This document shows, piece by piece, positions 12,999-32,374 of a DNA stretch of 64,000 nucleotides. The DNA comes from Candidatus Binatia bacterium (GTDB lineage: Bacteria; Desulfobacterota; Binatia; UBA9968; JAJDTQ01). Made by a program: the position numbers and the translations under genes. The DNA is taken from assembly GCA_963666515.2 (NCBI GenBank), contig OY762897.2:544001-608000 (forward strand). Reading direction: 5' to 3'. Position 1 is the stretch's first letter, and the number at the start of each line of letters is the position of its first letter. The notes under the pieces were generated by a model that searched no databases, was not told the DNA's origin, and saw only the letters and a list, made by a program, of their open reading frames with translations.

Positions 12999-14300
12999 AT
13001 GAAGAAACCCATTGACGCGGCAGAACTCCTCGTATCGAGAGCCGGCGAAGACGGCGACTTTCGCCAACGTCTTCTCGTGAAACCCAAAGAGACGATCGAA
13101 AAGGAATTCGGCGTGACGTTGGCCGAAGACCACGAGATTCACGTGCACGAGGAAACCTATGGCGCGACGCACGTGGTGCTTCCGCCGCGCAGCAAGTTCA
13201 GCAAGTCCGAACGGGAGGAGGCGAGAACCGGCGCCACCTCGCTAGAGTTTCTTCGCAAGACGCTCCACGACCCCGCGCCGCCCCTCCGTCCCCCCGCCAA
13301 CAAGCGGGCAAGAGCCCGAAAAAACGGTGCTAACTCCGAGGCGCTTGGGAGAGCGGCCAGAAAAAGCATCCGCCGCGGTCTCGTTTTCCTGGAATCCACC
13401 GTCGACGAGCAGTGGGCTTGGCACTGCATCCGGTTCAATGTAGCCAAACCGGACATTCCACGGCATTTCGAAAGACCTCCTTTCGTGTCGGCTCTCTGCG
13501 TGCTTGCGCTGCAAAGCAGCGATGAAGCGCGGGCCAAGGCCATGTGCGCCGCCACCAGGGCGTATCTCGTCAACACCATCGAGTATCCCGGATTGTGGCG
13601 TTACTATCGCCATCTGCCCCAGGATCTGGACAGCAGCTCACTCTGTTCGCTTGTCATTGGAACTCACCCGTGGATCCTGCTGGGAAGGAATGTTCCGCAG
13701 ATGTTGGCGAATCGCGACGAAGAAGGCCGTTTCATGACCTGGATGCTGGCGGAAGACCAACCCGATGTCGTGTCGCCCTTTCGAGTCGAAGCCGACCCGG
13801 TCGTCAATGCCAATGTCATCGCTTACCTGGGCGACCACGCCGAAACCAGGGATGCCCAACGATGGTTGGAAGCCCTGATCACCGAAGGCAGCCTCGAGGG
13901 CTCGTCGAAATGGTATCCCGACACGATCGCGATCTACTATGCGACCACACGCGCCATGATTTGCGCGCGGCCCGCTCTCGATTCACTACGCCCGATCCTT
14001 GCGGATCGTATCCTGGGCCTGCGCGACGGGAACGGAGCATTCGGCAACATCCTCCAGACCGCTCAGGCCGTGTCGGCGCTCTACAATATCGGAGGCCTTG
14101 AAAGCATCGACGCCAAACGCGAGGTGGAAAGGTTCATCGGTTCGCAACGTGAAGACGGTAGCTGGCCGGAGCTTCTCGCGTTCGGCGACCAAACGTTGAA
14201 GTGGGGCACGTTCGGGCAGATCGGGCATGGCTCCGAAGCCGTGACCTCCGCGTTTTGCATCGAAGCTCTGGAGCGTCTCGCCGAAGTCTTGAGGGCCTGA
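12999..14300 (+). CDS. NHLP-leader domain fused to a prenyltransferase/squalene-cyclase-repeat (class II terpene cyclase-like) domain
   Basis: The N-terminal ~80 aa align with the precursor leader (DGDFRQRLLVKPKETIEKEFGV...HVVLPP vs DPEFRQQLLADPKATISGELGI...HLALPP). The C-terminal part has PQDLDSS, DPVVNANVIAYLG and the QW-like motif SQREDGSW. Confidence 0.65.
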   Translation: MKKPIDAAELLVSRAGEDGDFRQRLLVKPKETIEKEFGVTLAEDHEIHVHEETYGATHVVLPPRSKFSKSEREEARTGATSLEFLRKTLHDPAPPLRPPANKRARARKNGANSEALGRAARKSIRRGLVFLESTVDEQWAWHCIRFNVAKPDIPRHFERPPFVSALCVLALQSSDEARAKAMCAATRAYLVNTIEYPGLWRYYRHLPQDLDSSSLCSLVIGTHPWILLGRNVPQMLANRDEEGRFMTWMLAEDQPDVVSPFRVEADPVVNANVIAYLGDHAETRDAQRWLEALITEGSLEGSSKWYPDTIAIYYATTRAMICARPALDSLRPILADRILGLRDGNGAFGNILQTAQAVSALYNIGGLESIDAKREVERFIGSQREDGSWPELLAFGDQTLKWGTFGQIGHGSEAVTSAFCIEALERLAEVLRA

Positions 14301-14378
14301 AGCCTTTGCGGGTTACTCTATGCGGTGGTAACATCGTACCTTGATGCCGGGGAGGAACAGTCCGTCAGGAAAGCTGCC

Positions 14379-16775
14379 ATGTCGCAAGATACAGCCGTAG
14401 GTGGCGGCTTGGGCCCAGACAACGCTGACGTCACCCAGCCCATTGAGCCGTCGATACGTAACGCCCTGCCGCATTACCTGCCACTGGGCATTTTTCCGCT
14501 GCTGCTTGCTGCCGTGATGTACGGCGGCTGGTGGTTGTTGCCGCCTTTTCTCTTCATGAGCGTCGTGGGTCCGCTTGATCGGGCGCTCGGTCCCGACGGC
14601 CGCAACATGGATCCGGAGAACACGCCGGAACGCCGGTTGCTCTGGCACAATCTGCCGGTCTGGACCTGGGCGTTTCTGTGGCCGGCGACGCTTGTTTTCG
14701 GCATGTGGCAGATCCTTGTCGCGAATCAGTTCGCGATCTGGGAAGCCGTGATCCTGGTGATCCTTCTCACCATGGAAGCACAGGCTGTCTTCGTGGTCGG
14801 TCACGAGTTGATTCACCGGCGCTCTACCTGGGAACGGCGGCTCGGAGAATTCCTGCTCGCCTCCGCTTCCTATCCGCAATATTCGACGGAACATGTCTAC
14901 ATCCACCATGCCAAGGTCGGCACGCCCCTTGATGTGGGATCCGCTCCAAAGGGGGAAAGTTTCTGGAGATATTTCCCCAGGGAGATCGTAAGCAACGTCA
15001 CCAACTCCTGGGACTTCGCCGGCGAACGCCTGGCGCGGCGCGGTCTGCCGCGGTGGCATTACAGCAATCAGTTCTGGCGCTACGGCATCGCCGTCCTGTT
15101 CTGGTACGGACTGGTGTGGTGGATGAGCGGGATCCTGGCGGTGCTGGTCTTTGCCTTCCTCGGTCTGAGCTGTGTCTTCTCGATGAAGATCAGCAACTAC
15201 TTCCAGCACTACGGTCTGCGGCGGGTGCGTCAGCCCAACGGCCGTTGGGAAAAGGTGATGCCGCGCCATTCCTGGGACGCCGACTGGAAGTTCAGCAACT
15301 GGATGTTCTTCAACATGCAACGCCATTCGGACCATCATGCCGCGGCGTCCCGCCACTATCCGCTGCTCCAGGTTCGGAGCGCCGACGACGCGCCGGTCTT
15401 GCCGGGAACCTACGCCGACATGATGAACATCGTGCTGCGGCCGAAGCGATGGTTCGAGAAGATGGATCCGTTGGTGGATCAATGGCGTGCGCATTTCTAT
15501 CCGGAGATCGATGACTGGAGCGCCTACGACAGCCCGATTTCCGCGGCGCGGCCGGAGGCCTTCGAGGCGATCGTCGAAATCTTCGGCACCGCCCCGCGGC
15601 TCGCCAAGTGGATCGAACGCAATCCCGAGCTCCTGGACTGTTTGCAGGAACGGGAATTCACCGACCTCGACCTGCCCAAGGGATTCGGGCCGGACCGGGA
15701 AACCGAGGCGATTGCGCGGCGCGGGCTTGCGAGGCTCTATTGGACGCTGGAAATGGGCGTGCAGGAGATGAAGGACCTGATCGCCGAAATCCCCACGGCG
15801 GATGCCAGGGAAACCGCCGAGATCGTGCGAAACTGGTCGAACGACAAGGCGTTTCAGATCGCCATGCACGTCTTGCGCGGAAACCTGTCGCCGGCCGAGG
15901 CGAAGACCGCCCTGTCTAATCTCGCGGAAGCGTCGATTTCGACCTTGCTCGGCGCGGTGGTGGCGGATGTGGTCGAACGGTCCGGACCGCTTGGCGCGGG
16001 TGGGGCCGCGGCGATATTCCTGGGCGATCTCGCCAGCCGGGAAGTTTATCCCGGCGTTGCCATCGACATGCTGTTCGTCCACGCCGGCGGCAGGATCGGC
16101 GACAATGAACGGCTTTGCCGGCAGTTCCGGGAGACCCTCGCCGACTTGGCCCGGGACAGTCTGTTGTTCTCGCCAATCGCGCCCGACCCGAATCCCCTTG
16201 CGGCGCTGCCCCTTTCCGAGCTGGCCGGGCATTGCGGGAGTCCTGCTTCCGGCACCATTCCCGTGCTCACCAGGGCGCGTTGCGTGTTCGAGTGCGGCGA
16301 CTCCGACATCGGCCGCCGCTTCGACGAGGCACGGCGCGACGCCTTGGCCGACTGCGGACGGAACGAGTCCCTGACTGGCGAGCCGCTCGAGCCACGGAAA
16401 GACGCCGCCGAAACCGGCGTGTCTGCATACGCCGATATGCGCGGCGGGCTGAATGACGTCGAGAGGGCCGCGCGGTTCCTGCAGTTGACGAATGGCGGGG
16501 CGGGCCTGGACGATCCGGCTCCGCCCGCGGTGGGGGTGCTTCATGGCGCGGGGGCGGAGCCCCTGGCGCAAGCCGCGTCCCTGTGGCGGGATTTGCAGGG
16601 CATCACGCGCCTCATCGGTGAGGAGGGGTTTGACGTGACCGCGGCGGGGCCGAAGGTCCACTCCCTCGTCGCGAGCGCATGCGGACACGCGGATTTCGAA
16701 GCGCTCAAGGCGGCGGTCGCCGAAACCGCGTCCCGCGCCGCCGCCGAGATCGATACGCTTCTTTCCCGCGCATGA
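14379..16775 (+). CDS. AlkB-like membrane di-iron monooxygenase/desaturase fused to a degenerate GlnE-like nucleotidyltransferase domain
   Basis: His boxes HELIH, EHVYIHH, NYFQHYG and MQRHSDHH. The C-terminal LGDLASREVYPGVAIDMLFV and RGGLNDVERAARFLQL resemble GlnE motifs. Confidence 0.75.
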   Translation: MSQDTAVGGGLGPDNADVTQPIEPSIRNALPHYLPLGIFPLLLAAVMYGGWWLLPPFLFMSVVGPLDRALGPDGRNMDPENTPERRLLWHNLPVWTWAFLWPATLVFGMWQILVANQFAIWEAVILVILLTMEAQAVFVVGHELIHRRSTWERRLGEFLLASASYPQYSTEHVYIHHAKVGTPLDVGSAPKGESFWRYFPREIVSNVTNSWDFAGERLARRGLPRWHYSNQFWRYGIAVLFWYGLVWWMSGILAVLVFAFLGLSCVFSMKISNYFQHYGLRRVRQPNGRWEKVMPRHSWDADWKFSNWMFFNMQRHSDHHAAASRHYPLLQVRSADDAPVLPGTYADMMNIVLRPKRWFEKMDPLVDQWRAHFYPEIDDWSAYDSPISAARPEAFEAIVEIFGTAPRLAKWIERNPELLDCLQEREFTDLDLPKGFGPDRETEAIARRGLARLYWTLEMGVQEMKDLIAEIPTADARETAEIVRNWSNDKAFQIAMHVLRGNLSPAEAKTALSNLAEASISTLLGAVVADVVERSGPLGAGGAAAIFLGDLASREVYPGVAIDMLFVHAGGRIGDNERLCRQFRETLADLARDSLLFSPIAPDPNPLAALPLSELAGHCGSPASGTIPVLTRARCVFECGDSDIGRRFDEARRDALADCGRNESLTGEPLEPRKDAAETGVSAYADMRGGLNDVERAARFLQLTNGGAGLDDPAPPAVGVLHGAGAEPLAQAASLWRDLQGITRLIGEEGFDVTAAGPKVHSLVASACGHADFEALKAAVAETASRAAAEIDTLLSRA

Positions 16776-16842
16776 CGCCTCCGCATCTTGCCATGCGAAT
16801 GAACCGGACGGGACACTAGCCGATCCGGCGCGGAAAACCCAG

Positions 16843-19158
16843 ATGCCAGCGCAAACGGACGCGAATCCCCGGCGCGGAATCCTGATCAGGACGACTCCCG
16901 CGGACCAGGGCCTTGTCGAGCTTCCCGCGCTTGCGCCGCACCTGCAATTCCACGATATCGGCGAAAAGCAGACGCTGCTGGTTTCCGAGTCGTTCAATAC
17001 CCTGCTGCACGGCAAGCTGTATTGCGATCTTCTGCCGCTGCTCGACGGCCGGCGCCCGCCGGACGAGATTGTCGCCGCCCTCGATGGCGCCCATGCCGCC
17101 GCCGACGTTCTTGCGGCCATGGTTTCGCTCTCCGCCAAGGGCTATGTCGTCTCCGCCGATCACGGCATGGACCGACCACGGGCAGCCTACTGGTCGTCGC
17201 TTGGCGCATCGCCGCGCTGGGTCGAGCGACGGCTGGCGGAATCGCGCGTCGCGGTTGAAGGTGACGAGGGCCGGTTCATCCGGCATCTGGAAGAGGGCGG
17301 TGCCGGCGTGGGGACCGGCGGTCCCAAACTTACGGTCGTCGTCTGCGACGATTATCTTGAAGCACACCTTGCGGAAGTGAATCGGCGCCGGCTTGAGGCG
17401 GGAGCGCCGTGGACGCTGGTGCGGCCGCGCGGCATGGAGGCGCTGTTCGGCCCCGTCTTTCGCGCGGACAAGCGAGGACCCTGCTGGGACTGCCTGGCTT
17501 ACCGCCTGCGCAGCCACCGGGAAGTCCACGGTTTTCTGCGCAACGTTGCCGGCGAGGAGGCTGCCTTCAAGCCGTTCGCGGCCCAGCCCGCGGTGCTGGA
17601 AGCGCTGTACGGGCTGATCGCCGCGGAGATGGTCAAATGGCTGGTGCTGGAGGAGGCCGCACCGATTCACGAGCACGCGATCACCATGAACGTCGGCGCC
17701 TTCGCAAGTTCGCAGCATCGGGTCATGCGCCGGCCGCAGTGCCCGGCCTGCGGCGACGAAGCGTTGCATCGGCCGGATCGACCGCCGGTCCCGCTGTGTC
17801 TGAAGGCGAGTCCCAAAGCCCATCTCAACAGCGGCGGCGCCCGCGCCGTGGCGCCGGAAGTGACCCTGGCGAAGTACCGCCACCTAGTGAGCCCTATCAG
17901 TGGTGTCGTGACCTGGCTTTCGCGCACCACCGATGAGGCCGATCCCTGGCTGCATGTCTACTGGGCCGGAAGCAATCTCGGCATGAGAAGCCGGAGCCTG
18001 AGTTCGCTCCGGCGCAGCCTGCGCAGCAAGAGCGCCGGCAAGGGCAGCACGCGAGAGCAGTCCGAGGCCAGCGCGCTGTGCGAGGCCGTCGAGCGCTATT
18101 CGGGCGCCTTTCATGGCGACGAGATCCGCGTCCGCAAGCGATTCGTCGAATTCGCCGGAGAGGAGGCGATCCATCCCAACGATGCGCAGTTGTTCAGCGA
18201 CCGTCAGCTCGACAACGCGAAGAGCATCAACGCGAAGGGCCACCCCTACAACATCGTCCCGCCGCGTCTCGACCCCGACGCCGAAATCGACTGGACGCCG
18301 GTGTGGTCACTCACGCAGGAGCGGCCTCGCTACCTGCCGACGTCCATGCTCTACAGCATGCCGGCCGAGCAGCGCGGCTCCTCGGACCTGATCGCCGATT
18401 CCAACGGCTGCGCCGCCGGCAATACCCTGGAAGAGGCCATCCTGCAGGGCTTCTATGAACTGGCCGAGCGCGATGCGTTCGCCATCTGGTGGTATAATTG
18501 TCTGCGCGTGCCCGCGGTCGATCTTTCGAGCTTCGACGACGAGTACCTGGCCTCGGCCTCGGACCATTACGCCCGCTACGAGCGGGACCTTTGGATGCTG
18601 GACGTCACCTCCGATATCGGCGTTCCCGCGTTCGTTGCGCTCTCACGCCGGCCGGACGCCCAGACCGAGGACATCATTTACGGCGCCGGAGCCCACGCCG
18701 ACCCGCGCATAGCGGCCCTGCGCGCGGTTTGCGAGTTGAACCAGTGCCTTACCTGGCTGCCGCGTCCCGGAAGCGGGGACGGCCGGCCCATGATCGATGA
18801 TCCGCTGGCGCTTTGGTGGTGGAAGACGGCAAGACTCGCGGACTGCTCCTGGCTGGCGCCCGCGGCGGACGTTTCTCCGCGCAAGGCCGGGAGCTATCCG
18901 GTGATCGAATCGACGGACGCGCGCGAAGACGTGGAGCACTGCCGCGCGCTTGTCGAAGCCGGGGGGATGGAGTTCCTGGTGCTGGACCAGACCCGGCCCG
19001 ACATCGGCATGCCCGTGGTACGGGTCATCGTGCCGGGCCTGCGCCACTTCTGGGCAAGATTCGCGCCCGGGCGCCTGTACGACGCGCCGGTCAGCATGGG
19101 CCGCCGCGAGCGCCCCCTCGCCGAGGCCGATTTGAATCCCGCGCCTGTCATCGCGTGA
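16843..19158 (+). CDS. srpC: Fused leader-binding (E1-like)/YcaO cyclodehydratase
   Basis: GPCWDCL and PQCPACG; SAGKG...ALCEAVERYS, DSNGCAAGNTLEEA and ELAERDA; Pro-rich C-terminus LNPAPVIA. The symbol is by analogy to the srp clusters. Confidence 0.93.
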   Translation: MPAQTDANPRRGILIRTTPADQGLVELPALAPHLQFHDIGEKQTLLVSESFNTLLHGKLYCDLLPLLDGRRPPDEIVAALDGAHAAADVLAAMVSLSAKGYVVSADHGMDRPRAAYWSSLGASPRWVERRLAESRVAVEGDEGRFIRHLEEGGAGVGTGGPKLTVVVCDDYLEAHLAEVNRRRLEAGAPWTLVRPRGMEALFGPVFRADKRGPCWDCLAYRLRSHREVHGFLRNVAGEEAAFKPFAAQPAVLEALYGLIAAEMVKWLVLEEAAPIHEHAITMNVGAFASSQHRVMRRPQCPACGDEALHRPDRPPVPLCLKASPKAHLNSGGARAVAPEVTLAKYRHLVSPISGVVTWLSRTTDEADPWLHVYWAGSNLGMRSRSLSSLRRSLRSKSAGKGSTREQSEASALCEAVERYSGAFHGDEIRVRKRFVEFAGEEAIHPNDAQLFSDRQLDNAKSINAKGHPYNIVPPRLDPDAEIDWTPVWSLTQERPRYLPTSMLYSMPAEQRGSSDLIADSNGCAAGNTLEEAILQGFYELAERDAFAIWWYNCLRVPAVDLSSFDDEYLASASDHYARYERDLWMLDVTSDIGVPAFVALSRRPDAQTEDIIYGAGAHADPRIAALRAVCELNQCLTWLPRPGSGDGRPMIDDPLALWWWKTARLADCSWLAPAADVSPRKAGSYPVIESTDAREDVEHCRALVEAGGMEFLVLDQTRPDIGMPVVRVIVPGLRHFWARFAPGRLYDAPVSMGRRERPLAEADLNPAPVIA

Positions 19159-19167
19159 GGAGACGAC

Positions 19168-20286
19168 ATGGAAATTGACGAGGCGGTCACGCTGACCCAG
19201 GGGCGGCTCGCCCAGGAGGGCGCCACTATGGCGGACTTGCTTGGGCACTTCCGCAAAAAGGTTTCGCCGGTGCTTGTGGGCGATCCGCAATGGCAGCGCA
19301 TACTCCAATGCGCCGGGCAACTCCCGATCACCATGGGCGCTCTTCCGTTCGGCTTCGAGCTGCCGCTGCATGAACCCGGGCCGGAGGCCGATTTCGGCGC
19401 CTCCCTCGCGAGCGGCACCAGAACCGCGGCGTTCTTCCGGGAGCGCGCGCGGACTGATGAAACGGATGAGACCGCGAGAGCCATCACGCGGTTGTTCGGA
19501 CAAATGGATGCCGAAAATTCACCTTTGCAGGAAATCGTCGGCCGCAAGTTGATGCTGGAATATGACATCGGCTCGGCGCGGGACAGGGAGCGTTCGCATC
19601 CGGGAATGTTCCTGCGGCCCGGCGAGCGCCCGATTGTCGGAGCCCGTGGTCAGGTGGACGATGTCGCTACGGTGGTTGACGCGCTCGTTTCCTGCGTAGG
19701 TTGGGAGGGGAGTGACGCCGAGCGCGAGAACGTCGAAAGGGTTTACCTGGCGCAGCCGGGAGATACCCGCCTGGATTCGTTCGGTGTGTTCCCGTCCCGC
19801 TCACGGTCCATCCGCCTGGCGATCATGGGCTTCAAGGCGCAGCAGGAACTGCGTGCCTATCTTGAAAACACGGGTTGGCCCGGTCGGGTCTCGGCCGTGG
19901 AGGCCGTGATTTCACGCTTCAGGGAACGTGCGAACGTCGTCAGGACCGGGGTGAACGTGGACGTGCGGGAAGAGGGTCTCGGTCCGACGCTCGGCCTGAC
20001 GCTCATCGTCAAGCAGAGGTATACAAAGGATTCACGTTACTGGCTTGACGGCCTGACCGACTGGGATCCGTTCCTGGAAGCCCTGGGCCAGGAGGATGTG
20101 GTCGTTCCGGAGAAGCTTGCGGCGCTGGCCGGCTGGGTTTCGAAAGCGACGCCGCTATTCGGGAAGTCCGGGCGTTTTGTGCTGATGCGCGGCATTCACC
20201 ACATCAAGCTGGTCATTTCCGGCGATCAGCTTCGCCAGGCCAAGGCCTACGTGTTCATGGTGCTCTCGGCCGCGGTCTCCCCTTGA
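19168..20286 (+). CDS. Uncharacterised cluster protein (possible aromatic prenyltransferase-like fold)
   Basis: GGAG RBS, 9 nt after ycaO, normal coding pattern. Motifs FGFELPL, MLEYDIG and HHIKLV...AKAYVF. The function is speculative. Confidence 0.55.
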   Translation: MEIDEAVTLTQGRLAQEGATMADLLGHFRKKVSPVLVGDPQWQRILQCAGQLPITMGALPFGFELPLHEPGPEADFGASLASGTRTAAFFRERARTDETDETARAITRLFGQMDAENSPLQEIVGRKLMLEYDIGSARDRERSHPGMFLRPGERPIVGARGQVDDVATVVDALVSCVGWEGSDAERENVERVYLAQPGDTRLDSFGVFPSRSRSIRLAIMGFKAQQELRAYLENTGWPGRVSAVEAVISRFRERANVVRTGVNVDVREEGLGPTLGLTLIVKQRYTKDSRYWLDGLTDWDPFLEALGQEDVVVPEKLAALAGWVSKATPLFGKSGRFVLMRGIHHIKLVISGDQLRQAKAYVFMVLSAAVSP

Positions 20287-20303
20287 CACCGGCCTGGAAC
20301 GGG

Positions 20304-20351
20304 AAAAACAAACCCCCGCCACCCCGCGATGGCGGGTGACGGGGGCTGTTT
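20304..20351. terminator. Bidirectional rho-independent terminator between the convergent operons
   Basis: AAAAACAAA-CCCCCGCCACCCCGC-GATG-GCGGGTGACGGGGG-CTGTTT hairpin. Confidence 0.75.
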
Positions 20352-20417
20352 CAAGCTGTGTACGGATGCGGATTCGGATTGTTCCGGATCTTGACCGGCT
20401 ACACGCCGGTTATGGGC

Positions 20418-20669
20418 CTACCAGCAGCAGCAAAGGCCGGCCGAGATGGCCTCGAGCTGCTCCTCGGTGATGTTCGGATCCGGCGGCAACGCGAGATGCA
20501 CCGTCTGCATGTCGCTCTCATGGACCACGACGTTCATCGAGTCGGGAATCGTGATGCCCAATTCCCCACTGATGGTGGCCTTCGGATCCGCGAGAAGCTG
20601 TTGCCTGAACTCCGGGTCCAGGGCCGACTTCTCAACAATCTGGTTCAGCATTTCGTCACCACTTCTCAT
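20418..20669 (-). CDS. srpE: NHLP/proteusin RiPP precursor, core LCCCW
   Basis: Nitrile-hydratase-like leader (DPEFRQQLLADPKA), double-glycine-type motif ITEEQLEAISAG, then LCCCW-stop. AGGAGG RBS. Confidence 0.93.
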   Translation of the reverse strand: MRSGDEMLNQIVEKSALDPEFRQQLLADPKATISGELGITIPDSMNVVVHESDMQTVHLALPPDPNITEEQLEAISAGLCCCW

Positions 20670-20702
20670 GGCAGTCCTCCTTTATTCTCATCCATGTTCA
20701 AA

Positions 20703-25977: not shown

Positions 25978-25988
25978 TGCGTCCTGTA

Positions 25989-28199
25989 TCAGCCTGACTT
26001 GACGAGCTTGAAATACGCGCCGTCCTCGTCCGCCATCAACTCGTCGTGGGTGCCGCGCTGCACTTCGACGCCCTTGTCGAGCACGATGATCTGGTCGCAG
26101 TCCCTCACGGTGCTCAGCCGGTGCGCCACGATCAGGCAGGTGACGCCGCGGCGCCGCAGGGCGTCATCGACGTATTCCTCCGTCGCGGCATCCAGAGAGC
26201 TGGTCGCCTCATCCAGGACGAGCACCGTCGGATGGCCCACCAGCGCACGGGCGATTTCCAGCCTTTGCCGCTGGCCGCCGCTGAAGTTGACGCCGCCTTC
26301 CTCGACGAGGGTCGCGTATCCGTGCGGCCTCAGGAGGATTTCCTCATGGATGGAGGCATCCCGCGTTGCGGCGATGATGACTTCATTCGGAACGGCCGGG
26401 TTCCACAAGGTGATGTTGTCGCGCACGGACGCGGAAAAGAGCATCGCCTCCTGATCCACCATGGAAACGGACCGCCGCAGCACTTCCTCGGGAATCTCGT
26501 CCCGCGGGTGGCCGTCGAACAGAATTTCGCCCGACCAGGGCTGGCAGATACCCGAAACCAGACGCGCCAGTGTCGACTTCCCGGAGCCGCTGGGACCGAC
26601 CACGGCAACCCGCTCCCCCGCCCTGATCACGAGGTTGAAGTCCTTGATCAGGGGCGGCCGGCTCTTGTTGTAACCGAAGGTGACGTCGCGCAGCTCGAGC
26701 CGGCCTGCAAGCTGAAGCCGGCCGTTGAACGTGGGGATGGACTCGGATTCGGGACTTCGGCGGCTGAAAGCGGAGTCCTCGGCGGTCTCGGAGACGTCTT
26801 CCAGTCGTTGCAAATCGGTTTCGAGCGCGTGGCGTTTGTCGGCGAACTCCAGAAAGCGTCCGACAGGCGCCAGGAACATCTCCGCCAGGATGTAGAACCC
26901 GACCAGCGTCCCCAGGGTCATGGCTCCGGTCATGACCAGACTTCCCCCGATGCCCACGACCGCGGCGCCGCGAAGCGCGGCGACCAGGCCCGGAAGCGCG
27001 GTATTGACGGAGGCCAGCTCGGAATAGAGCTGCCGCGCGCGCAGTTCGCGCGCCTGCTGACCGCTCCAGCGCGAAAAGAACTTGTCATCCGACCCCGTCA
27101 TGCGCAGGTTGTCCGCATGACTCAACATCTGCATGCCGGAGCTGATCAGCAATCCCTGCTCGCGCCTCATCGCGTGGCTTCGGACGTCCCGGAGCGCGTT
27201 GAGGAAGTGGGCCAGCATTCCGTGCAGGAGGGCCAGCAACAGCACGATTACCGTGAGCAGGACGTCGCAGGCCAACATGGCGACGAGCAGCACCGCGCTC
27301 ATCGCCATGTCGATGAGGAGCACAAGAAACTGCTCCGTCAGGTTCTTCGCGATCCTGTCGATGGATGAGACTCGGTCCGTCAGGTCGCCGACCAGCCGGT
27401 GTTCGAAGAACTCCACCGGCAAACGCAGCAGCCGCGACAGGCCCCGGTTGGAGCCGACCACCGAAATCCGCACTGCGAGCCGCTTGAGGAATCGGTGCTT
27501 GAGCAGGGACAGCACGTAGACCAGGACGCCGCCGCCAAGCAGGGCCGCCACCAATCCGCTCCAGGGCCCGTGGTTTTCCAGGACGTCGTCCACGAAAACA
27601 CCGAGGGACGCGGGAACGAGAAGCGCCAGCAACGTCAACATGAGCCCGCAGGCAAACACCCCGGCAAGCACGTTCCATGACCCGGCGAGCAAGGTGCGCA
27701 ATCGGCTGAACAAGCCGGGCCGCTCGCCGCCCGGCCTGAAGTCGGCGCCGCGCTTGAATTGCAGCGCAATGCCGCTGTAGCTCTTGGTGAACTCTTCCGC
27801 GGAAAGCGTGCGCCGCCCCGTGGCCGGGTCATTGAGATGGAAATTGCCGGCGTCGAACCCTTCGAGGACGACGAAATGGCTGAATTGCCAGAACAGGATC
27901 AGAGGCAGCGGCAGCTTTTTCAGTGATTCGGCGCGTACGCTGAGCCCTCGGCATTCGAGACCGTAGTGTCTGGAGGCGCGCGAGAGGCTCGCTGCGCTGC
28001 TGCCGTCCCGGCTCACCTCGCATCTTTCGCGCAGTTCGGTAAGCGGCACCCAGCGCCCGAAGTAGGCCAGGATGCTGCCGAGGCAGGCGGCGCCGCATTC
28101 CGTCGCGTGCATCTGCAACAGAAGCGGCGTGGTGACCCGTCGTTTCGACGGCTCCGACGCGGTCCTGTCGCTTGCCCCTGTAGAGGCGGCCGGCGGCAT
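25989..28199 (-). CDS. NHLP-system peptidase-containing ABC transporter (C39)
   Basis: QMHATECGAACL (catalytic Cys), HFVV, GPSGSGKST, FSGGQRQR and LDEATS. Confidence 0.92.
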   Translation of the reverse strand: MPPAASTGASDRTASEPSKRRVTTPLLLQMHATECGAACLGSILAYFGRWVPLTELRERCEVSRDGSSAASLSRASRHYGLECRGLSVRAESLKKLPLPLILFWQFSHFVVLEGFDAGNFHLNDPATGRRTLSAEEFTKSYSGIALQFKRGADFRPGGERPGLFSRLRTLLAGSWNVLAGVFACGLMLTLLALLVPASLGVFVDDVLENHGPWSGLVAALLGGGVLVYVLSLLKHRFLKRLAVRISVVGSNRGLSRLLRLPVEFFEHRLVGDLTDRVSSIDRIAKNLTEQFLVLLIDMAMSAVLLVAMLACDVLLTVIVLLLALLHGMLAHFLNALRDVRSHAMRREQGLLISSGMQMLSHADNLRMTGSDDKFFSRWSGQQARELRARQLYSELASVNTALPGLVAALRGAAVVGIGGSLVMTGAMTLGTLVGFYILAEMFLAPVGRFLEFADKRHALETDLQRLEDVSETAEDSAFSRRSPESESIPTFNGRLQLAGRLELRDVTFGYNKSRPPLIKDFNLVIRAGERVAVVGPSGSGKSTLARLVSGICQPWSGEILFDGHPRDEIPEEVLRRSVSMVDQEAMLFSASVRDNITLWNPAVPNEVIIAATRDASIHEEILLRPHGYATLVEEGGVNFSGGQRQRLEIARALVGHPTVLVLDEATSSLDAATEEYVDDALRRRGVTCLIVAHRLSTVRDCDQIIVLDKGVEVQRGTHDELMADEDGAYFKLVKSG

Positions 28200-28200
28200 C

Positions 28201-28752
28201 CTATGATCGCCTCATTCCGAAAAGCGCGGCCGGGGACTGCCTGCCGAGTTCGATGACGATCCGGCATTGCCGATCCGCGAGGGCACCAAAATCGATGCCT
28301 TTGTCGAGCGCGATATCAAGGCGGTACACGGACACCGGCGCCGCGGACTTCAACGCCGCCAACCCCTCGGACAGGGGTAACGCGGAAACGGTCGTGACCT
28401 CTCCGTCGAGCGTGTCTGCCTTGCCGGCCGCCCTGCCCAACTCTATCGCCGCCGGCATCCCGGCCTTGATGTGCGGTGCGAGGTCGTTTTCGATCCAGAC
28501 GAGCGCCTGGACGGACCGGTTGCCCTCGGGCAGGCTTTCGCCAGGCTTTACCAGTGCGCCCTCCACCGCAATGCTGCGAGGCACGTTGCCGAAGAAGAGC
28601 CATGCCGCGAGGATGAGCAACAACAGTCCGATGACGGCCACGAGCAGACGCTCCCGCGGCGTGGAGACCGTCAGCAGCCGGTCGAGTTGTTCGCGTTCTT
28701 CCTTTCCTTCGGCAACAGTATTGTGAAATGAGTCAAATGGATTGTTGAACAC
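28201..28752 (-). CDS. Shortened NHLP secretion (HlyD-like) accessory protein
   Basis: EQLDRLLTVSTPRERLL plus one TM segment, G.PAAI...GEVTTVS and C-terminal RQSPAALF. Only ~183 aa. Confidence 0.65.
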   Translation of the reverse strand: MFNNPFDSFHNTVAEGKEEREQLDRLLTVSTPRERLLVAVIGLLLLILAAWLFFGNVPRSIAVEGALVKPGESLPEGNRSVQALVWIENDLAPHIKAGMPAAIELGRAAGKADTLDGEVTTVSALPLSEGLAALKSAAPVSVYRLDIALDKGIDFGALADRQCRIVIELGRQSPAALFGMRRS

Positions 28753-28840
28753 GACCGTCTGCACCCTCCTCACAGAGATACAGCAACGGGAAGGAAAATC
28801 TCATGCGGCGTGAGTGGAAGTCTGGGGGATATCTGGAGGA

Positions 28841-28904
28841 TAATATGCAATCTCGACCCGGCAAGGTCAAGTCCTTTAACCTTGCAGGGGAATCGAGGTA
28901 CAAT
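28841..28904. promoter_or_regulatory. Divergent promoter region of the two transport operons
   Basis: TTGACC-N17-CATATT on the minus strand (from 28870) and TTAACC-N17-TACAAT on the plus strand (to 28904). Confidence 0.35.
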
Positions 28905-28931
28905 GCGGTATCTCCATCACGGGACCTGCGC

Positions 28932-29804
28932 ATGACCCCTCACAATCAAACCGGCAGGAGACGCTTCCTCGGCCAGGGCCGGACGAAGGGTTTCCCACGC
29001 CTCCAGGGTGCTTCGTTCGGTGTCTGGCTCCTGGCGCTGGCGGGCTTCTGCCTGCCACATGTGCAGGCCCTTGCTCAGGAAGAAACGCCGGAGGAAAAGG
29101 GTCTCAGGATTGCGCGTGAAGCAAGCGCCCGCGACGACGGCTTCGGGGATTTCACCGCCGGAATGACGATGGTGCTGCGCGACCGGCACGGTCGGGAAAG
29201 CGTCCGGCGGATGCGCTTCAAGGTGCTGGAGGTGCCGGGGGACGGCGACAAGAGCCTGTTCGTGTTCGATCAGCCGCGGGACGTGCGGGGAACCGCCCTC
29301 CTGACTCACGCTCACGTCAATACTCAGGACGACCAGTGGCTGTACCTCCCGGCCCTGAAAAGGGTGAAGCGCATCAACGCCGCGAAGCGTTCAGGGTCGT
29401 TCATGGGAAGCGAGTTTTCCTATGAAGACATGAGCGCCCAGGAGGTGGAGGAATACACCTACAAGTATCTTCGCGACGAGCCCTGCGGCGAACTCACTTG
29501 CACGGTGACCGAGCAGGTCCCCCTGGACAGGAAGTCCGGATACAGCCGCAAGGTCATCTGGCAGGATACAGGTGAGCTTCGGACCTGGAAAATGGAGCTT
29601 TACGACCGGAGGGGCTCGCACCTGAAGACCCTCACTTTCGTGAACTATCAGCAATATCTGGACCGGTACTGGCGGGCAGGAGAACAGACGATGGTGAATC
29701 ACCTGACCGGTGCGAGCACGGTGCTCAAGTGGACCGATTTCCGGTTTCGCGCCAATCTTGAAGAGAGCGAATTCAACCACTTGTCACTTCGACGCATCCG
29801 CTGA
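28932..29804 (+). CDS. Outer membrane lipoprotein-sorting (LolA-like) protein
   Basis: FDQPRDVRGTALL, DDQWLYLPALKRVKRI and SFMGSEFSYEDM, with a signal-like region. Confidence 0.85.
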   Translation: MTPHNQTGRRRFLGQGRTKGFPRLQGASFGVWLLALAGFCLPHVQALAQEETPEEKGLRIAREASARDDGFGDFTAGMTMVLRDRHGRESVRRMRFKVLEVPGDGDKSLFVFDQPRDVRGTALLTHAHVNTQDDQWLYLPALKRVKRINAAKRSGSFMGSEFSYEDMSAQEVEEYTYKYLRDEPCGELTCTVTEQVPLDRKSGYSRKVIWQDTGELRTWKMELYDRRGSHLKTLTFVNYQQYLDRYWRAGEQTMVNHLTGASTVLKWTDFRFRANLEESEFNHLSLRRIR

Positions 29805-31033
29805 TGCGATTCTGCGGCGCAATTGCGGCCCTCGTGCTCCTGGTTGCCGCGGGCGCCGGGGCGCAGCCTCTCGAGTTTTCGGGCGACCTGAGCCTGCAGG
29901 GGCGGTGGTATCCGGAATCGCCGGCCTTCGCGGGTCAGCGTTCAGGCACCGCTGGTCTGGTGGCGAAGCCGGCGCTTTACGGGGAGGTCGCAAGAAACGC
30001 CAGCTTCACCCTCACCGGGCTCTATCGATACGACAGCGCCGATTCGCAGCGCACCCATGCGGACCTGCGCGAGGCCTACCTGTTGGTGCACGGAGACTGG
30101 GATGGGAATTCCTGGGAGCTAAGGCTGGGACTCGATCAGGTTTTCTGGGGCGTGGCCGAAGCGCACAACCTCGTGGATATCGTCAACTCGGTGGACCTCG
30201 TCGAGCACCCGCGCAATCGACCCAAGCTGGGTCAGCCCATGGTGCGCCTGACGGTCTCGGGCGACTGGGGCCTCGCCGAGTCATTCCTGCTGCCGTATCA
30301 TCGCAAGCTCACATTTCCGGGGCGTTCCGGGCGCCACCGATCGGGCCATCCGATCGACGAGGACGCCTTGTACGAGAGTGACGCCGAAGAACGCCACGTG
30401 GATTTTGCATTTCGCTACGGCAACGCCGTGGGCTCGCTGGATTTCGGCCTGAGCACCTTTGTAGGAACAAGCCGTGAACCCTCGTTTCTTGCCGGCCGTC
30501 CATCCGGGCCGTTGCCGGTGACTGGCGCGCCGTTGATCCCGTACTACGGGCAGATTCGGCAGTTCGGCGTCGACGCGCAACTCACCACCGAGCCCTGGCT
30601 TTACAAGATGGAAGCCATTCGTCGTAGCGGAGCACGCAATCTCCTGGGTGAGGAGGAGGATTACAGCGCCGTCATCTTCGGCCTGGAGCGCACCCTCTAC
30701 GCGCTGTTCGGTTCCCGAGCGGACTTGACCTTTTTCGCCGAGTGGCTCTACGACGGTCGCGGACGCCGCGCGACAAGCGTCTGGGCGAACGACTTTTTCA
30801 TCGCGGGCCTGCTTGCGTTCAACGACGTTCAGGGCACCGAGCTGATGGCCAGCATCCTGGGCGACCTCCGCCATGATTCTCGTTCGTTGAACCTGGAACT
30901 GAAACGCCGCCTGTCGGATAGCTGGACGATGCGCCTGGAAGCGATCGCCAACCTGGGGGTGGACAGGCGGGACTTGACTTACGATGGAAGGCGCGACAGC
31001 TTTTTGGGCCTGGACTTCACGTTCAGCTTCTGA
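29804..31033 (+). CDS. Outer-membrane beta-barrel protein (partner of the LolA-like/MMPL module)
   Basis: Signal peptide, DLREAY...LRLGLDQVFWGV..HNLVDIVN and a C-terminal beta-signal ending FTFSF. TGATG coupling. Confidence 0.7.
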   Translation: MRFCGAIAALVLLVAAGAGAQPLEFSGDLSLQGRWYPESPAFAGQRSGTAGLVAKPALYGEVARNASFTLTGLYRYDSADSQRTHADLREAYLLVHGDWDGNSWELRLGLDQVFWGVAEAHNLVDIVNSVDLVEHPRNRPKLGQPMVRLTVSGDWGLAESFLLPYHRKLTFPGRSGRHRSGHPIDEDALYESDAEERHVDFAFRYGNAVGSLDFGLSTFVGTSREPSFLAGRPSGPLPVTGAPLIPYYGQIRQFGVDAQLTTEPWLYKMEAIRRSGARNLLGEEEDYSAVIFGLERTLYALFGSRADLTFFAEWLYDGRGRRATSVWANDFFIAGLLAFNDVQGTELMASILGDLRHDSRSLNLELKRRLSDSWTMRLEAIANLGVDRRDLTYDGRRDSFLGLDFTFSF

Positions 31034-31102
31034 TGGCGTCCGTGGCGGGTGCTTGACCCGTGGTGATTGGATACCCGTGGTGATTGGATTCAGGTCGGGG
31101 TG

Positions 31103-32374
31103 ATGCAGCCGGGCGGTAAATCCTTACGGAAGATCGCGGTTGTGGGGCGAGGAACCGCTGGGTCCCTGGCGGCCGCCAGCGTAACCCGTCTTCACCCCGA
31201 CGGCGACCACGAGCTGCACCACATCTATGACTCGCGCATCCCGGTCATCGGAGTGGGTGAAGGCAGTTGGCCGAGCCTGGTCCAGCAACTGCAGCAACTG
31301 ACCAATCTGCCCCATGAAACCGTCCAGCAGCGCTTGAACGGTACTCGCAAGTACGGTGTTGCATTCGAGGGATGGGGCCGGCGGAATCGGGACTTTACCC
31401 ACTACTTCACGCCGCAACAGGTGTCCTATGCCTATCACCTTTCCGCCGACTTGATGGCGGAGTTGCTGGAAGAAGGCACAAGCGCGCGCCACATCGACGC
31501 GAAAGTGCTCGATATCACCAGGGTGGAGGGCGGCGCGCAGGTGGATTTCGAGGACCGGGCGCCGGAACGTTACGACTTGGTTTTCGATGCCCGCGGGTTC
31601 CCCAAAGAACTCCATCCCGACCGGCACATCGACATTTCCTTCATCCCCACCAATACCGCCGTCATCCGCCGCTGCCCGGCGACCATCAAGGAAGAGGGGG
31701 ATGGCCCGGTTCTGCAACCTACCTATACCCGTGCGGTTGCGCGTCCGCACGGCTGGGTATTCGTCATTCCGCTAACGGTGCACACATCCTACGGGTACAT
31801 CTTCAACCGCGACGTCACCAGCCTTGCCGAAGTCGAATCGGATTTCGACGCGTTCCTCGAAACCGACGGCGTATCTGAATTCGAGCAACGCGCGGTCATT
31901 CCGTTTCCCAACTTCGTCCACCGTCAGATTTACGATGGCGCGGTGGCCCGCATCGGCAACGCCGCGGCCTTCATGGAGCCCCTGGAAGCGACGGCGATCG
32001 TATCCGCCCAGTTGCAGATCGGGATGGTCCTCCACATACGCCTCAACCGTTCGCCGGAGAATCTTGAGCGCGACGCCCCGGTGGTCAATCGATTCCTCAT
32101 CAACAACATGCTCTGCTACGGCCTGTTCGTCGGCTGGCACTATTCCTGCGGCTCCAGGTACGACAGCGAGTTCTGGCGTCACGCTCGCGACCACGTCTGG
32201 CCACAACGCCGCAAGGCGGCGGACCCCGCGGTGGTGGATTGCGCCGCGCTCGGCAAATTCGACGAGATGATCGAGGTGTTGAATCAGCCGGTGATCGACA
32301 AGGCGGACTGGGACCGGATGTGCGCGGTCCCCCTCACCAGCTACGCCCAGATGTCTCAGGGTCTTGGCTGTTAG
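31103..32374 (+). CDS. srpI: Flavin-dependent tryptophan halogenase family (peptidyl halogenase)
   Basis: GRGTAG, IGVGEGSW, catalytic K in GTRKYGVAFEGW, GWVFVIPL and FMEPLEATAI. The symbol is by analogy to the srp clusters. Confidence 0.88.
   Translation: MQPGGKSLRKIAVVGRGTAGSLAAASVTRLHPDGDHELHHIYDSRIPVIGVGEGSWPSLVQQLQQLTNLPHETVQQRLNGTRKYGVAFEGWGRRNRDFTHYFTPQQVSYAYHLSADLMAELLEEGTSARHIDAKVLDITRVEGGAQVDFEDRAPERYDLVFDARGFPKELHPDRHIDISFIPTNTAVIRRCPATIKEEGDGPVLQPTYTRAVARPHGWVFVIPLTVHTSYGYIFNRDVTSLAEVESDFDAFLETDGVSEFEQRAVIPFPNFVHRQIYDGAVARIGNAAAFMEPLEATAIVSAQLQIGMVLHIRLNRSPENLERDAPVVNRFLINNMLCYGLFVGWHYSCGSRYDSEFWRHARDHVWPQRRKAADPAVVDCAALGKFDEMIEVLNQPVIDKADWDRMCAVPLTSYAQMSQGLGC

What the first reader, a model, noticed from the sequence alone, without database searches (positions are those of the whole stretch)
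12999..32374. Complete proteusin cluster (LCCCW core) with an unexplained terpene/lipid-tailoring arm
Seen: three operons. The first holds four enzymes. The second holds the secretion protein, two ABC transporters, MMPL and the precursor. The third holds a LolA-like protein, a beta-barrel and a halogenase. Known (from recollection): sponge-microbiome srp clusters encode an LCCCW precursor whose Cys residues are cyclised by a YcaO and whose terminal Trp is brominated by a peptidyl halogenase. To my knowledge the mature natural product and the accessory enzymes are not resolved. Inference: the cyclase-like, AlkB-like and prenyltransferase-like genes plus lipid-trafficking proteins point to a RiPP-terpenoid or lipid hybrid built on a five-residue core.
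Basis: partly seen in the sequence, partly recalled or inferred. Interest (0 to 1): 0.85.

Follow-up and report, generated by a model that had tools for sequence, protein, structure and literature searches.

The report
Sponge-symbiont srp peptide cluster, terpenoid arm
This is a complete copy of the known sponge-symbiont "srp" gene cluster for a tiny brominated, thiazoline-rich peptide, and its uncharacterised genes look like a prenyltransferase, a terpene cyclase and an alkane-type hydroxylase, so the unknown final product is probably a peptide-terpenoid hybrid.

Summary
Window 12999-32374 holds three operons with 12 genes. They encode an 83-aa NHLP precursor ending LCCCW, a fused E1-like/YcaO cyclodehydratase, a Trp halogenase, two NHLP-type ABC exporters and a mini-HlyD. 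The six other genes are accessory.

This is the published srp cluster: SrpE, SrpC and SrpI (passages of PMC10286304 and PMC10858898).

- **g4** has no Pfam hit but folds as an ABBA aromatic prenyltransferase (pLDDT 90; Z 16.6 to indole prenyltransferases).
[quoted passage not shown] Its D-L-D-S-T motif aligns with the AsDMS general acid and is kept in 55 of 55 orthologues.
- **g2** carries all four AlkB motifs.
- **Export genes** are an HpnN-like RND pump, a LolA-like protein and a putative barrel.
- **Co-occurrence:** within ±10 kb of 56 LCCCW precursors, g1 occurs in 49 and g4 in 44, against 46 for YcaO.

A prenyltransferase plus MstE-like cyclase acting on Trp is already known for other RiPPs (NctPC, per review PMC13290415). 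This is therefore a new variant of a known kind, with no biochemical proof.

The parts
12999..14300 (+). g1: precursor-like NHLP domain (about residues 1-80) plus variable linker plus monodomain class II terpene cyclase (from about residue 108). 433 aa from ATG 12999; the ORF opens at GTG 12987.
   Evidence: TIGR03793 7.5e-12, below the cut-off. 32% identical to the precursor over 72 aa with no gaps, E 1e-15. Model pLDDT 77.9. VIA Z 28.4 to AsDMS, 27.3 to MstE, 24.5 to SHC, against about 18 for unrelated alpha/alpha barrels. Profile A4 hits AsDMS at 8.8e-6 and aligns D215 with the general acid D323 (PMC12232559). D-L-D-S-T/S in 55 of 55 orthologues.
14379..16775 (+). g2: AlkB-type membrane di-iron hydroxylase/desaturase (N-terminal half) fused to a GlnE-like nucleotidyltransferase-type domain that lacks a conserved DxD. 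The ORF opens at 14325; the likely start is the M of MSQDT.
   Evidence: FA_desaturase 2.4e-27, GlnE 1.1e-6. NF010706 1.5e-20 on the C-terminal half. Atlas hits to GlnE/GlnD_UR_UTase at 0.90. HELxH, EHxxxHH, NYxQHYGL and NMQRHxDHH invariant in 14 of 14 orthologues aligned.
16843..19158 (+). Fused winged-helix/E1-like/YcaO cyclodehydratase (SrpC-type).
   Evidence: YcaO 9.8e-96, winged HTH 1e-9. TIGR03604 1.5e-84, TIGR03882 1.6e-40.
19168..20286 (+). g4: ABBA-fold (PT-barrel) aromatic prenyltransferase-like protein of a family without a Pfam model.
   Evidence: No Pfam, NCBIfam or PDB sequence hit, even with a 90-member profile. Model pLDDT 90.3, pTM 0.89, five alpha-alpha-beta-beta units. Foldseek EpzP 1e-7. 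VIA Z 16.6 MpnD, 15.5 CymD, 15.1 6-DMATS; all 50 listed rows are prenyltransferases. Within 600 nt of the precursor in 50 of 56 loci.
20315..20336 (-). Terminator-like hairpin downstream of the precursor gene.
   Evidence: 9-pair stem followed by a T-rich tail. 1 found against 0.6 expected, so weak on its own.
20418..20669 (-). Precursor (SrpE-type), 83 aa: NHLP leader, ITEEQL motif, SAG|LCCCW.
   Evidence: TIGR03793 66.8 bits, cut-off 50.9. 87-94% identical in 80 loci, all ending LCCCW.
20762..23050 (-). RND/MMPL transporter of the HAE3/HpnN-like type with a sterol-sensing-like domain.
   Evidence: MMPL 1.5e-32, Sterol-sensing 2e-14. TIGR00921 3.6e-43, TIGR03480 HpnN 3.9e-34, both below their cut-offs. 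TTG start overlaps the ABC stop.
23047..25977 (-). NHLP bacteriocin export ABC permease/ATPase, second subunit.
   Evidence: TIGR03797 5.2e-201.
25989..28199 (-). NHLP export ABC transporter with a C39 leader peptidase domain.
   Evidence: Peptidase_C39 4.6e-34. TIGR03796 3.2e-246.
28201..28773 (-). Short (190 aa) HlyD-like secretion protein.
   Evidence: TIGR03794 3.3e-7, covering only positions 6-57 of 421. Same length in orthologues.
28803..29804 (+). LolA-like periplasmic carrier. A Tat-like RRRFLG motif suggests a start near 28932 (inference).
   Evidence: LolA_like 6.5e-58. Sequence.
29804..31033 (+). Putative outer-membrane barrel.
   Evidence: DUF1302 1.5e-4, below the cut-off. Signal-like N-terminus and C-terminal F.
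31067..32374 (+). Flavin-dependent Trp halogenase (SrpI-type).
   Evidence: Trp_halogenase 1.6e-44. Best solved relative is 5uao, a Trp-5-halogenase, at 4.2e-24.

Best explanation
The locus is a complete srp-type proteusin cluster. Its product is most likely a peptide-terpenoid hybrid, not just a brominated tri-thiazoline pentapeptide.

Steps shown for orthologous proteins in the literature:
- The YcaO enzyme turns the three Cys of the LCCCW core into thiazolines.
- The halogenase brominates the C-terminal Trp at indole C6. It depends on the leader.

Steps inferred here:
- The ABBA-fold protein g4 transfers a prenyl chain onto the peptide. The donor is probably C15 or C20, taken from the cell's own pool. 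The most likely acceptor is the indole of the only aromatic residue, Trp.
- The class II cyclase domain of g1 protonates the terminal double bond, with D215 as the acid, and cyclises the chain.
- The AlkB-type g2 oxidises the lipid part.
- The C39-ABC/ABC/mini-HlyD system cuts after SAG and exports the product.
- The HpnN-like RND pump, the LolA-like carrier and the barrel carry the hydrophobic product across the periplasm to the outer membrane.

The cyclase carries its own copy of the leader's folded nucleus. That copy lacks the L(X)4L and cleavage-site hydrophobics. I read it as a docking or recognition domain and not as a substrate.
For: Cluster identity. Literature passages: PMC10286304, PMC10858898, bioRxiv 10.1101/2023.06.09.544420 section 10.

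g4 as a prenyltransferase:
- The model has pLDDT 90.3 and five alpha-alpha-beta-beta units.
- All 50 listed VIA rows are ABBA prenyltransferases. Indole prenyltransferases lead: Z 16.6 for MpnD (307 aa aligned, 4.4 A) and 15.5 for CymD.
- Foldseek gives 103 matches at E<=0.001, with EpzP best at 1e-7.
- The Atlas gives leads to Trp_DMAT and PTase_Orf2.
- Across a 90-member family alignment, E64, D75, D133, R211, R216, H345, K347, K359 and Y361 are at least 90% conserved. Most of them lie on barrel strands.

g1 as an active class II cyclase:
- Z 28.4 to AsDMS (284 aa aligned, 2.8 A) and 27.3 to MstE, against about 18 for unrelated barrels.
- Profile A4 matches AsDMS at 8.8e-6. It places D-L-D-S-T on D-L-D-T-T. 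PMC12232559 names D323 there as the general acid.
- The motif is kept in 55 of 55 full-length orthologues.

g2: all four AlkB motifs are invariant in 14 of 14 sequences aligned.

Linkage, counted in 56 loci with full ±10 kb flanks: g1 in 49, g4 in 44, g2 in 37, YcaO in 46, halogenase in 29. g1 and g4 occur together in 42. No other gene family recurs in more than 12 of 80 loci.

[quoted passage not shown] It geranylgeranylates a Trp of a RiPP and then cyclises the chain.

Export: the RND pump is HpnN/HAE3-like with a sterol-sensing-like domain.

g1-precursor contact, weak support only:
- ipSAE 0.40, best of 3 controls 0.00.
- The mark was reached by 58 of 80 solved complexes and 2 of 110 mismatched pairs.
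- At 0.60 or under it was reached by only 7 of those 80, and by both mismatches that passed.
- The runs share at least 93% of their contacts, and the partner pLDDT is at least 70.

Contigs of one sponge metatranscriptome library lie on all 30 bins of the cluster at 90% identity or more. Contigs cannot prove transcription.
Against: - No chemistry exists. The published co-expressions I could read report only thiazolines and bromine.
- g4 has no sequence-level link to any known prenyltransferase family. Its assignment rests on a predicted fold, and I could not map the conserved residues in 3D.
- No polyprenyl diphosphate synthase is in the cluster or in the related loci. The genome's two lie far away.
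- No rubredoxin, the usual AlkB partner, was found in this 98%-complete genome.
- The GlnE-like half of g2 lacks a conserved DxD and is unexplained.
- The role of the NHLP domain on g1 is a guess. An NHLP was monomeric by SAXS, and the complex score is weak.
- One distant g4 relative (G143) sits beside a flavin monooxygenase with no RiPP genes. The family is therefore not exclusively RiPP-linked.
- Two key papers were not readable: Nguyen 2021 (PMC8780398) and Hubrich 2024 (PMC11484575). All supplements were closed. They may already annotate these genes.
Confidence: 0.6

Rival explanations
1. The peptide is lipidated, but differently from my scheme. For example, prenyl goes onto the free N-terminus or another atom and not the indole. 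Or a short C5/C10 chain is added that g1 does not cyclise. Or g2 acts as the missing azoline-to-azole oxidase instead of oxidising a terpene.
For: The cluster has no SagB/nitroreductase-type azoline oxidase, whereas the related mpr system has MprD. [quoted passage not shown] The acceptor and chain length were not testable here.
Against: An intact, invariant class II acid motif (55 of 55) makes little sense without a chain of at least C10-C15 to cyclise. The nearest folds to g4 are indole prenyltransferases. The NctPC precedent uses Trp and C20. I know of no AlkB-type azoline oxidase (recalled, not searched).
Confidence: 0.15
2. The accessory arm makes a separate small terpenoid or lipid that is not attached to the peptide. 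An example would be a meroterpenoid or a membrane lipid handled by the RND/LolA-like/barrel proteins. It travels with the RiPP genes only because the two products act together.
For: MstE and AsDMS, the closest folds to g1, act on small molecules. HpnN-type pumps move hopanoids (family names). One distant g4 relative has a non-RiPP context.
Against: The cyclase is fused to a paralogue of the precursor's own leader in all 26 orthologues aligned. The 120 best of 1134 relatives are about 433 aa long and many carry PF02979. g4 is the precursor's nearest neighbour, within 600 nt, in 50 of 56 loci. No gene for a small aromatic acceptor or a prenyl donor recurs in the loci.
Confidence: 0.12
3. g1 and g4 are catalytically silent fold relatives. 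They would serve as binding, chaperone or immunity proteins for a very hydrophobic peptide. The final product would then be only the brominated tri-thiazoline pentapeptide.
For: g4 matches no curated prenyltransferase model. The only modifications on record are thiazolines and Br. The core alone is already hydrophobic enough to need lipid-type export.
Against: The D-x-D acid motif is invariant, and charged residues on the g4 barrel strands are conserved down to 26% identity. The AlkB di-iron histidines are intact. Three enzyme-like genes are kept at 65-90% identity across phyla.
Confidence: 0.08

Closest known systems
srp clusters (sponge-derived RiPP proteusins: SrpE, SrpC, SrpI; Nguyen et al. 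JACS 2021, known to me only through later papers)
   Same: NHLP precursor of 83 aa from a 252-bp gene, ITEEQL motif, LCCCW core, YcaO, Trp brominase-type halogenase, NHLP ABC exporters. Spread over many phyla at 87-94% precursor identity.
   Different: Nothing differs in gene content as far as I can tell; this is a member. What is added here is a functional reading of the genes that the papers I could read leave unnamed.
NctPC and ChrPC, prenyltransferase-cyclase maturases of RiPPs (Hubrich et al. 2024, seen only through review PMC13290415)
   Same: [quoted passage not shown] Trp is the acceptor, and prenylation is followed by cyclisation.
   Different: Here the two activities are separate genes, not one fused protein. 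The cyclase is instead fused to a copy of the NHLP leader. The core also carries three thiazolines and a bromine. Sequence relatedness to NctPC could not be tested, because no sequence was available.
MstE and the cyclase domain of drimenol synthase AsDMS (monodomain class II terpene cyclases)
   Same: A single beta-domain fold (Z 27-28) and a D-x-D-(T/S) general acid motif in the aligned place.
   Different: 15-19% identity. Those enzymes cyclise small molecules (a prenylated benzoate; FPP). g1 has an N-terminal NHLP domain and no phosphatase domain.
DMATS-type/ABBA indole prenyltransferases (MpnD, CymD, 6-DMATS, FgaPT2)
   Same: PT-barrel fold with about 300 of 372 residues aligned.
   Different: 6-12% identity. 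No match to PF11991 or PF11468. g4 belongs to its own family of 559 representatives at E<=0.001.
AlkB alkane 1-monooxygenase
   Same: All four signature motifs. That these four motifs define AlkB is from my own knowledge.
   Different: Fused to a GlnE-like domain instead of, or without, rubredoxin. No rubredoxin gene was found in the genome.
HpnN hopanoid transporter and other lipid RND (HAE3/MMPL) systems
   Same: MMPL and sterol-sensing-like domains, with a periplasmic LolA-like carrier and a putative barrel beside it.
   Different: Scores are far below the HpnN equivalog cut-off (117.8 against 751.85 bits). The cargo is unknown.

Membership tests
srp proteusin cluster | NHLP-leader precursor ending in the core LCCCW | tested here: met
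   All 80 related loci also end in LCCCW.
srp proteusin cluster | YcaO cyclodehydratase and flavin-dependent Trp halogenase in the same locus | tested here: met
srp proteusin cluster | Thiazoline formation and Trp-6 bromination by these very proteins | not testable with these tools
   Shown for SrpC and SrpI in PMC10286304.
ABBA (PT-barrel) aromatic prenyltransferases | Ten-stranded antiparallel barrel made of five alpha-alpha-beta-beta units | tested here: met
   Secondary-structure string of the model. VIA Z 12.7-16.6 to 50 prenyltransferase entries.
ABBA (PT-barrel) aromatic prenyltransferases | Membership in a curated sequence family (PF11991 Trp_DMAT, PF11468 PTase_Orf2, PF19156) | tested here: not met
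   0 of 90 family members hit any of them at E<=0.1. A profile search of PDB sequences found no prenyltransferase.
ABBA (PT-barrel) aromatic prenyltransferases | Basic and Tyr residues lining the barrel that bind diphosphate | tested here: inconclusive
   R211, R216, K347, K359 and Y361 are at least 90% conserved, and most lie on strands. I had no coordinates to check that they face the lumen.
Class II terpene cyclases (monodomain, MstE-like) | Beta-domain alpha/alpha barrel fold | tested here: met
   Z 28.4, 27.3 and 26.1 to AsDMS, MstE and the small myxobacterial cyclases. Profile E 8.8e-6 to AsDMS.
Class II terpene cyclases (monodomain, MstE-like) | DXDD-type general acid motif with a strictly conserved middle Asp | tested here: met
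   D213-L-D215-S-T aligns with the AsDMS D-L-D323-T-T (PMC12232559). 55 of 55 orthologues keep it.
AlkB alkane hydroxylase family | Four histidine-rich motifs, including NYxEHYG | tested here: met
   Invariant in 14 of 14. The motif definitions are recalled.
AlkB alkane hydroxylase family | Rubredoxin electron partner | tested here: not met
   PF00301 was not found in the 98.35%-complete genome. Another redox partner is possible.
NctPC-type RiPP prenyltransferase-cyclase | Prenyltransferase and cyclase fused in one polypeptide | tested here: not met
   They are separate genes here and in the related loci. The 'longer' search for g4 found only one 851-aa protein, which carries a YcaO domain.
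NctPC-type RiPP prenyltransferase-cyclase | Sequence homology to NctPC | not tested
   No NctPC sequence was at hand. Hubrich 2024 is not held.

The most novel reading that the evidence does not exclude
The srp product, made and transcribed by symbionts of many phyla in sponges, is a brominated tri-thiazoline pentapeptide carrying a cyclised sesqui- or diterpenoid on its Trp. This would be a hopanoid-like 'peptide lipid' placed in the outer membrane by an HpnN-like/LolA-like/barrel route. Its cyclase would recognise the substrate through a fused paralogue of the substrate's own leader. That would be a leader-on-the-enzyme logic not described for RiPPs in the papers I could search.
Probability: 0.25. 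Interest if true: 0.85.

Novelty: new variant of a known kind. Interest (0 to 1): 0.65.

Why it matters
The srp cluster is one of the most widespread biosynthetic loci in sponge microbiomes, and its precursor gene is among the most highly transcribed. None of the papers I could read reports the mature product, and its ecological role is called elusive.

If the accessory arm adds and cyclises an isoprenoid, earlier searches for the product looked for the wrong mass and polarity. The reading gives concrete targets. [M+H]+ for the 79Br form would be 855.2754 with C15 and 923.3380 with C20. One added oxygen gives 871.2703 and 939.3329.

The reading also supplies a defined gene set to co-express.

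It would add two new sequence families to the toolbox for peptide lipidation: a Pfam-less ABBA prenyltransferase and a leader-fused monodomain cyclase. It would sit beside a brominase that is already used for bioconjugation.

Tried and rejected
1. g1 as a leader-bearing cargo cut and exported by the C39 transporter. Rejected. In register with the precursor, L72 of the L(X)4L motif is R and I75 is A. That motif is what C39 proteases, YcaO RREs and SrpI use (passages).

2. NHLP-NHLP dimerisation as an established mode. An NHLP precursor was monomeric by SAXS. Only a weak complex score remains.

3. Sequence links of g4 to known families. phmmer, a 90-row profile against PDB sequences, and Pfam on all 90 members gave nothing relevant.

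4. Fused prenyltransferase-cyclase relatives of g4. The 'longer' search gave 1 protein of 7999 candidates scored, carrying a YcaO domain. The tool itself calls such a blank weak evidence.

5. Context of distant g4 relatives.
   - The metagenome scan with alignment A7 was not run, because no stretch was conserved enough.
   - With single protein P0052 it gave one 65-residue match of no use.
   - A scan of 401 genomes of the window's phylum found g4 relatives in 2, including the window's own genome.
   - The other, G143, has a flavin monooxygenase neighbour and no RiPP genes.

6. Distant relatives of the g1 cyclase. The 120 proteins listed of 1134 are all at least 79% identical, so no outgroup was obtained.

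7. Expression. Only contigs were available. They cover the locus but cannot show transcripts, levels or strand.

8. Extra conserved genes such as a prenyl synthase, rubredoxin or azoline oxidase. Clustering the remaining ORFs of 80 loci gave no family in more than 12 loci.

9. Papers not held: PMC8780398, PMC9746716, PMC11484575.


Full report
**What is there.** The window is about 65% G+C. Between 12999 and 32374 it holds twelve genes in three operons.

- Operon 1 (+): g1, g2, YcaO, g4.
- Operon 2 (-): mini-HlyD, C39-ABC, second ABC, MMPL and the precursor. The MMPL TTG start overlaps the ABC stop codon.
- Operon 3 (+): LolA-like protein, putative barrel, halogenase.

The precursor (20418-20669, 252 bp) reads MRSGDEML...NITEEQLEAISAGLCCCW. 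It scores 66.8 bits on TIGR03793 against a cut-off of 50.9. The flanking genes are an autotransporter-like protein, a carboxylase and a two-component system. None of them recurs in related loci.

**It is the known srp cluster.** Passages of PMC10286304 and PMC10858898 make three statements:
- The physiological substrate of the brominase SrpI is SrpE.
- The core LCCCW has been turned into three thiazolines by the YcaO enzyme SrpC.
- SrpI brominates the C-terminal Trp at indole-6 and needs the leader.

Section 10 of the Waterworth preprint describes a 252-bp, highly transcribed precursor gene with the consensus ITEEQL and the core LCCCW. It was found in bins of many phyla. Both features fit this gene exactly.

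Of these, 296 were confirmed as relatives. The 80 loci kept are 87-94% identical and all 80 end in LCCCW. The record titles name Chloroflexota, Gemmatimonadota, Acidobacteriota, Binatia and Alpha-, Gamma- and Deltaproteobacteria, among others. The 80 loci are not 80 genomes: L017, L018 and L029 lie on one contig.

In the window's own phylum the g4 family was found in only 2 of 401 genomes sampled, the window's own included. That fits horizontal spread.

I used tblastn with the window's 12 proteins on the 80 loci. I counted presence in the 56 loci that have the full ±10 kb:

| Gene | Loci of 56 |
|---|---|
| second ABC | 52 |
| g1 | 49 |
| YcaO | 46 |
| g4 | 44 |
| g2 | 37 |
| C39-ABC | 34 |
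| halogenase | 29 |
| mini-HlyD | 29 |
| LolA-like | 27 |
| MMPL | 25 |
| barrel | 17 |

These are lower bounds, because the cluster (over 19 kb) is longer than either flank. Further points:
- g1 and g4 occur together in 42 of the 56.
- g4 lies within 600 nt of the precursor in 50 of the 56 loci that hold a full-length g4. It is on the opposite strand in 53 of them.
- No other gene family recurs in more than 12 of 80 loci.
- Two of the 56 loci hold a precursor with none of the other genes nearby.

The accessory genes are thus as much part of the cluster as YcaO.

**g4.** It has no Pfam, NCBIfam or PDB sequence match. An exhaustive HMMER search found 559 representatives at E<=0.001. Neither a profile of 90 of them nor each of the 90 on its own links to a known family.

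The AlphaFold model, built on 26 orthologues, has pLDDT 90.3 and pTM 0.89. It shows five alpha-alpha-beta-beta units. Foldseek gives 103 PDB matches at E<=0.001. The listed matches are aromatic prenyltransferases, with EpzP best at 1e-7. VIA-align gives Z 16.6 for MpnD (307 aa aligned, 4.4 A), 15.5 for CymD and 15.1 for 6-DMATS, falling to 12.7. All 50 listed rows are ABBA prenyltransferases, with the indole-specific ones on top.

Across the family, down to 26% identity, E64, D75, D133, R211, R216, H345, K347, K359 and Y361 stay at least 90% conserved. I file g4 as ABBA-fold and prenyltransferase-like. It is not a member of any curated family.

**g1.** The first 72 aligned residues are 32% identical to the precursor, without a gap and in the same register (E 1e-15). 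The alignment runs up to the position of the cleavage site. The second Leu of the L(X)4L motif is Arg, and the Ile four residues before the cut is Ala.

After a variable linker comes an alpha/alpha barrel. Its structural matches are:
- Z 28.4 to the cyclase domain of drimenol synthase AsDMS (284 aa aligned, 2.8 A).
- Z 27.3 to MstE.
- Z 26.1 to small myxobacterial cyclases.
- Z 24.5 to squalene-hopene cyclase.
- About Z 18 for glycosidase-type barrels.

A profile of the domain matches AsDMS by sequence at 8.8e-6. It lays D213-L-D215-S-T on D-L-D323-T-T. PMC12232559 names D323 as the catalytic general acid. It also says the middle Asp of the DXDD-type motif is strictly conserved. The motif is D-L-D-S-T in 53 and D-L-D-S-S in 2 of 55 full-length orthologues.

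The fusion is the rule. The 120 best of 1134 relatives are all about 433 aa long. Sources name them 'hypothetical protein' or 'nitrile hydratase subunit alpha'.

**g2 and the export genes.** The N-terminal half of g2 keeps HELxH, EHxxxHH, NYxQHYGL and NMQRHxDHH in 14 of 14 sequences aligned. By my knowledge these are the AlkB signature motifs.

The C-terminal half is GlnE-like. The position of the nucleotidyltransferase DxD varies (D/E/K/N, then a hydrophobic residue). It is probably not a transferase, and its role is unexplained. No rubredoxin was found in the genome.

The RND protein is HAE3/HpnN-like with a sterol-sensing-like domain. Together with a LolA-like carrier and a putative barrel, it looks like a route for a lipid-like cargo.

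**How it most likely works.**

Shown in the literature for orthologues:
- Cyclodehydration of three Cys residues.
- Leader-dependent bromination of Trp at C6.

Inferred here:
- g4 prenylates the peptide, most likely on the Trp indole.
- g1 cyclises the chain by protonation from D215.
- g2 oxidises the lipid part.
- The C39 transporter cuts after SAG.
- The RND/LolA-like/barrel set moves the product outward.

The strongest outside support is a precedent. Review PMC13290415 reports that NctPC geranylgeranylates a Trp of a RiPP and then cyclises the chain. [quoted passage not shown] The srp genes look like a split version of this module, with the cyclase fused to a leader copy instead.

The cell's own pool must supply the prenyl donor. 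Two polyprenyl synthase genes lie far from the cluster.

A predicted g1-precursor complex gave only weak support:
- ipSAE 0.40, best of 3 controls 0.00.
- The mark was reached by 58 of 80 solved complexes and 2 of 110 mismatched pairs.
- At 0.60 or under it was reached by only 7 of those 80, and by both mismatches that passed.
- The runs share at least 93% of their contacts, and the partner pLDDT is at least 70.

**Against this reading.**
- There is no chemistry for any accessory gene.
- The g4 assignment is by fold only.
- No donor synthase and no AlkB redox partner is linked to the cluster.
- One distant g4 relative sits in a non-RiPP context.
- The GlnE-like domain of g2 and the NHLP domain of g1 remain unexplained.
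- Nguyen 2021, Nguyen 2022 and Hubrich 2024 were not held and supplements were closed. I cannot exclude that these genes were already annotated there.

**Novelty.** The cluster itself is already known. Prenylation plus class II cyclisation of a RiPP Trp is also known (NctPC, ChrPC).

Four searches of the held library and the passages I read turned up none of the following:
- This module inside the srp cluster.
- Its split form.
- A cyclase fused to a leader paralogue.
- The combination with thiazolines and bromine.

PMC11832590 still speaks of 'several genes of unknown function'. I re-derived them independently here. I rate the finding a new variant of a known kind, with interest 0.65.

**Expression.** One RNA-labelled run of a sponge metatranscriptome holds contigs that lie on all 30 bins of the locus. 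There are 2076 pieces, 204 of them at 99% identity or more. These are contigs of a mixed community, so they show presence in that library and not transcription of this copy.

Noticed in passing
L003:1429-2358 (-), own genome C1 around 1,408,000: The third NHLP-like hit in the genome is an ordinary nitrile hydratase alpha subunit. It is a 309-aa ORF with a VCTLCSC metal-site motif, not a RiPP precursor.
   Followed up: partly
L017, L018, L029 (one contig); L022, L024, L038 and others: Some genomes carry several LCCCW precursor loci. Some precursors stand alone: 2 of 56 full-flank loci have none of the other 11 genes within ±10 kb, and several more have only exporter and halogenase genes.
   Followed up: partly
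L007, L015, L043, L065, L068, L073 (about positions 2000-4500): In gammaproteobacterial-type loci the AlkB-GlnE gene is only 47-49% identical to the window's copy. It lies apart from g1, beside a 61-64% identical YcaO. This is a second, divergent arrangement of the cluster.
   Followed up: no
P0271 (851 aa, from the protein collection): A single protein joins a YcaO domain with a g4-like part (42% identity over 64% of g4). It is either a natural fusion or a gene-calling artefact.
   Followed up: no
L091:9478-10473 (-), genome G143: A distant g4 relative (E 9.5e-25 to the family profile) in a 72% G+C genome of the same class. It lies next to an FAD-binding monooxygenase, with no RiPP genes within ±10 kb.
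   Followed up: partly
window 10317-12923 (+): An 868-aa protein with a signal-like N-terminus, a weak dCache_2 match and an autotransporter beta-domain lies directly upstream of the cluster.
   Followed up: no
window 40000-52000: A stretch with strong positive GC skew (0.10-0.19) and G+C falling to 0.54 at 50-52 kb, unlike the rest of the window.
   Followed up: no
whole genome G000: No rubredoxin (PF00301) was found in a 98.35%-complete genome that encodes an AlkB-type enzyme.
   Followed up: partly
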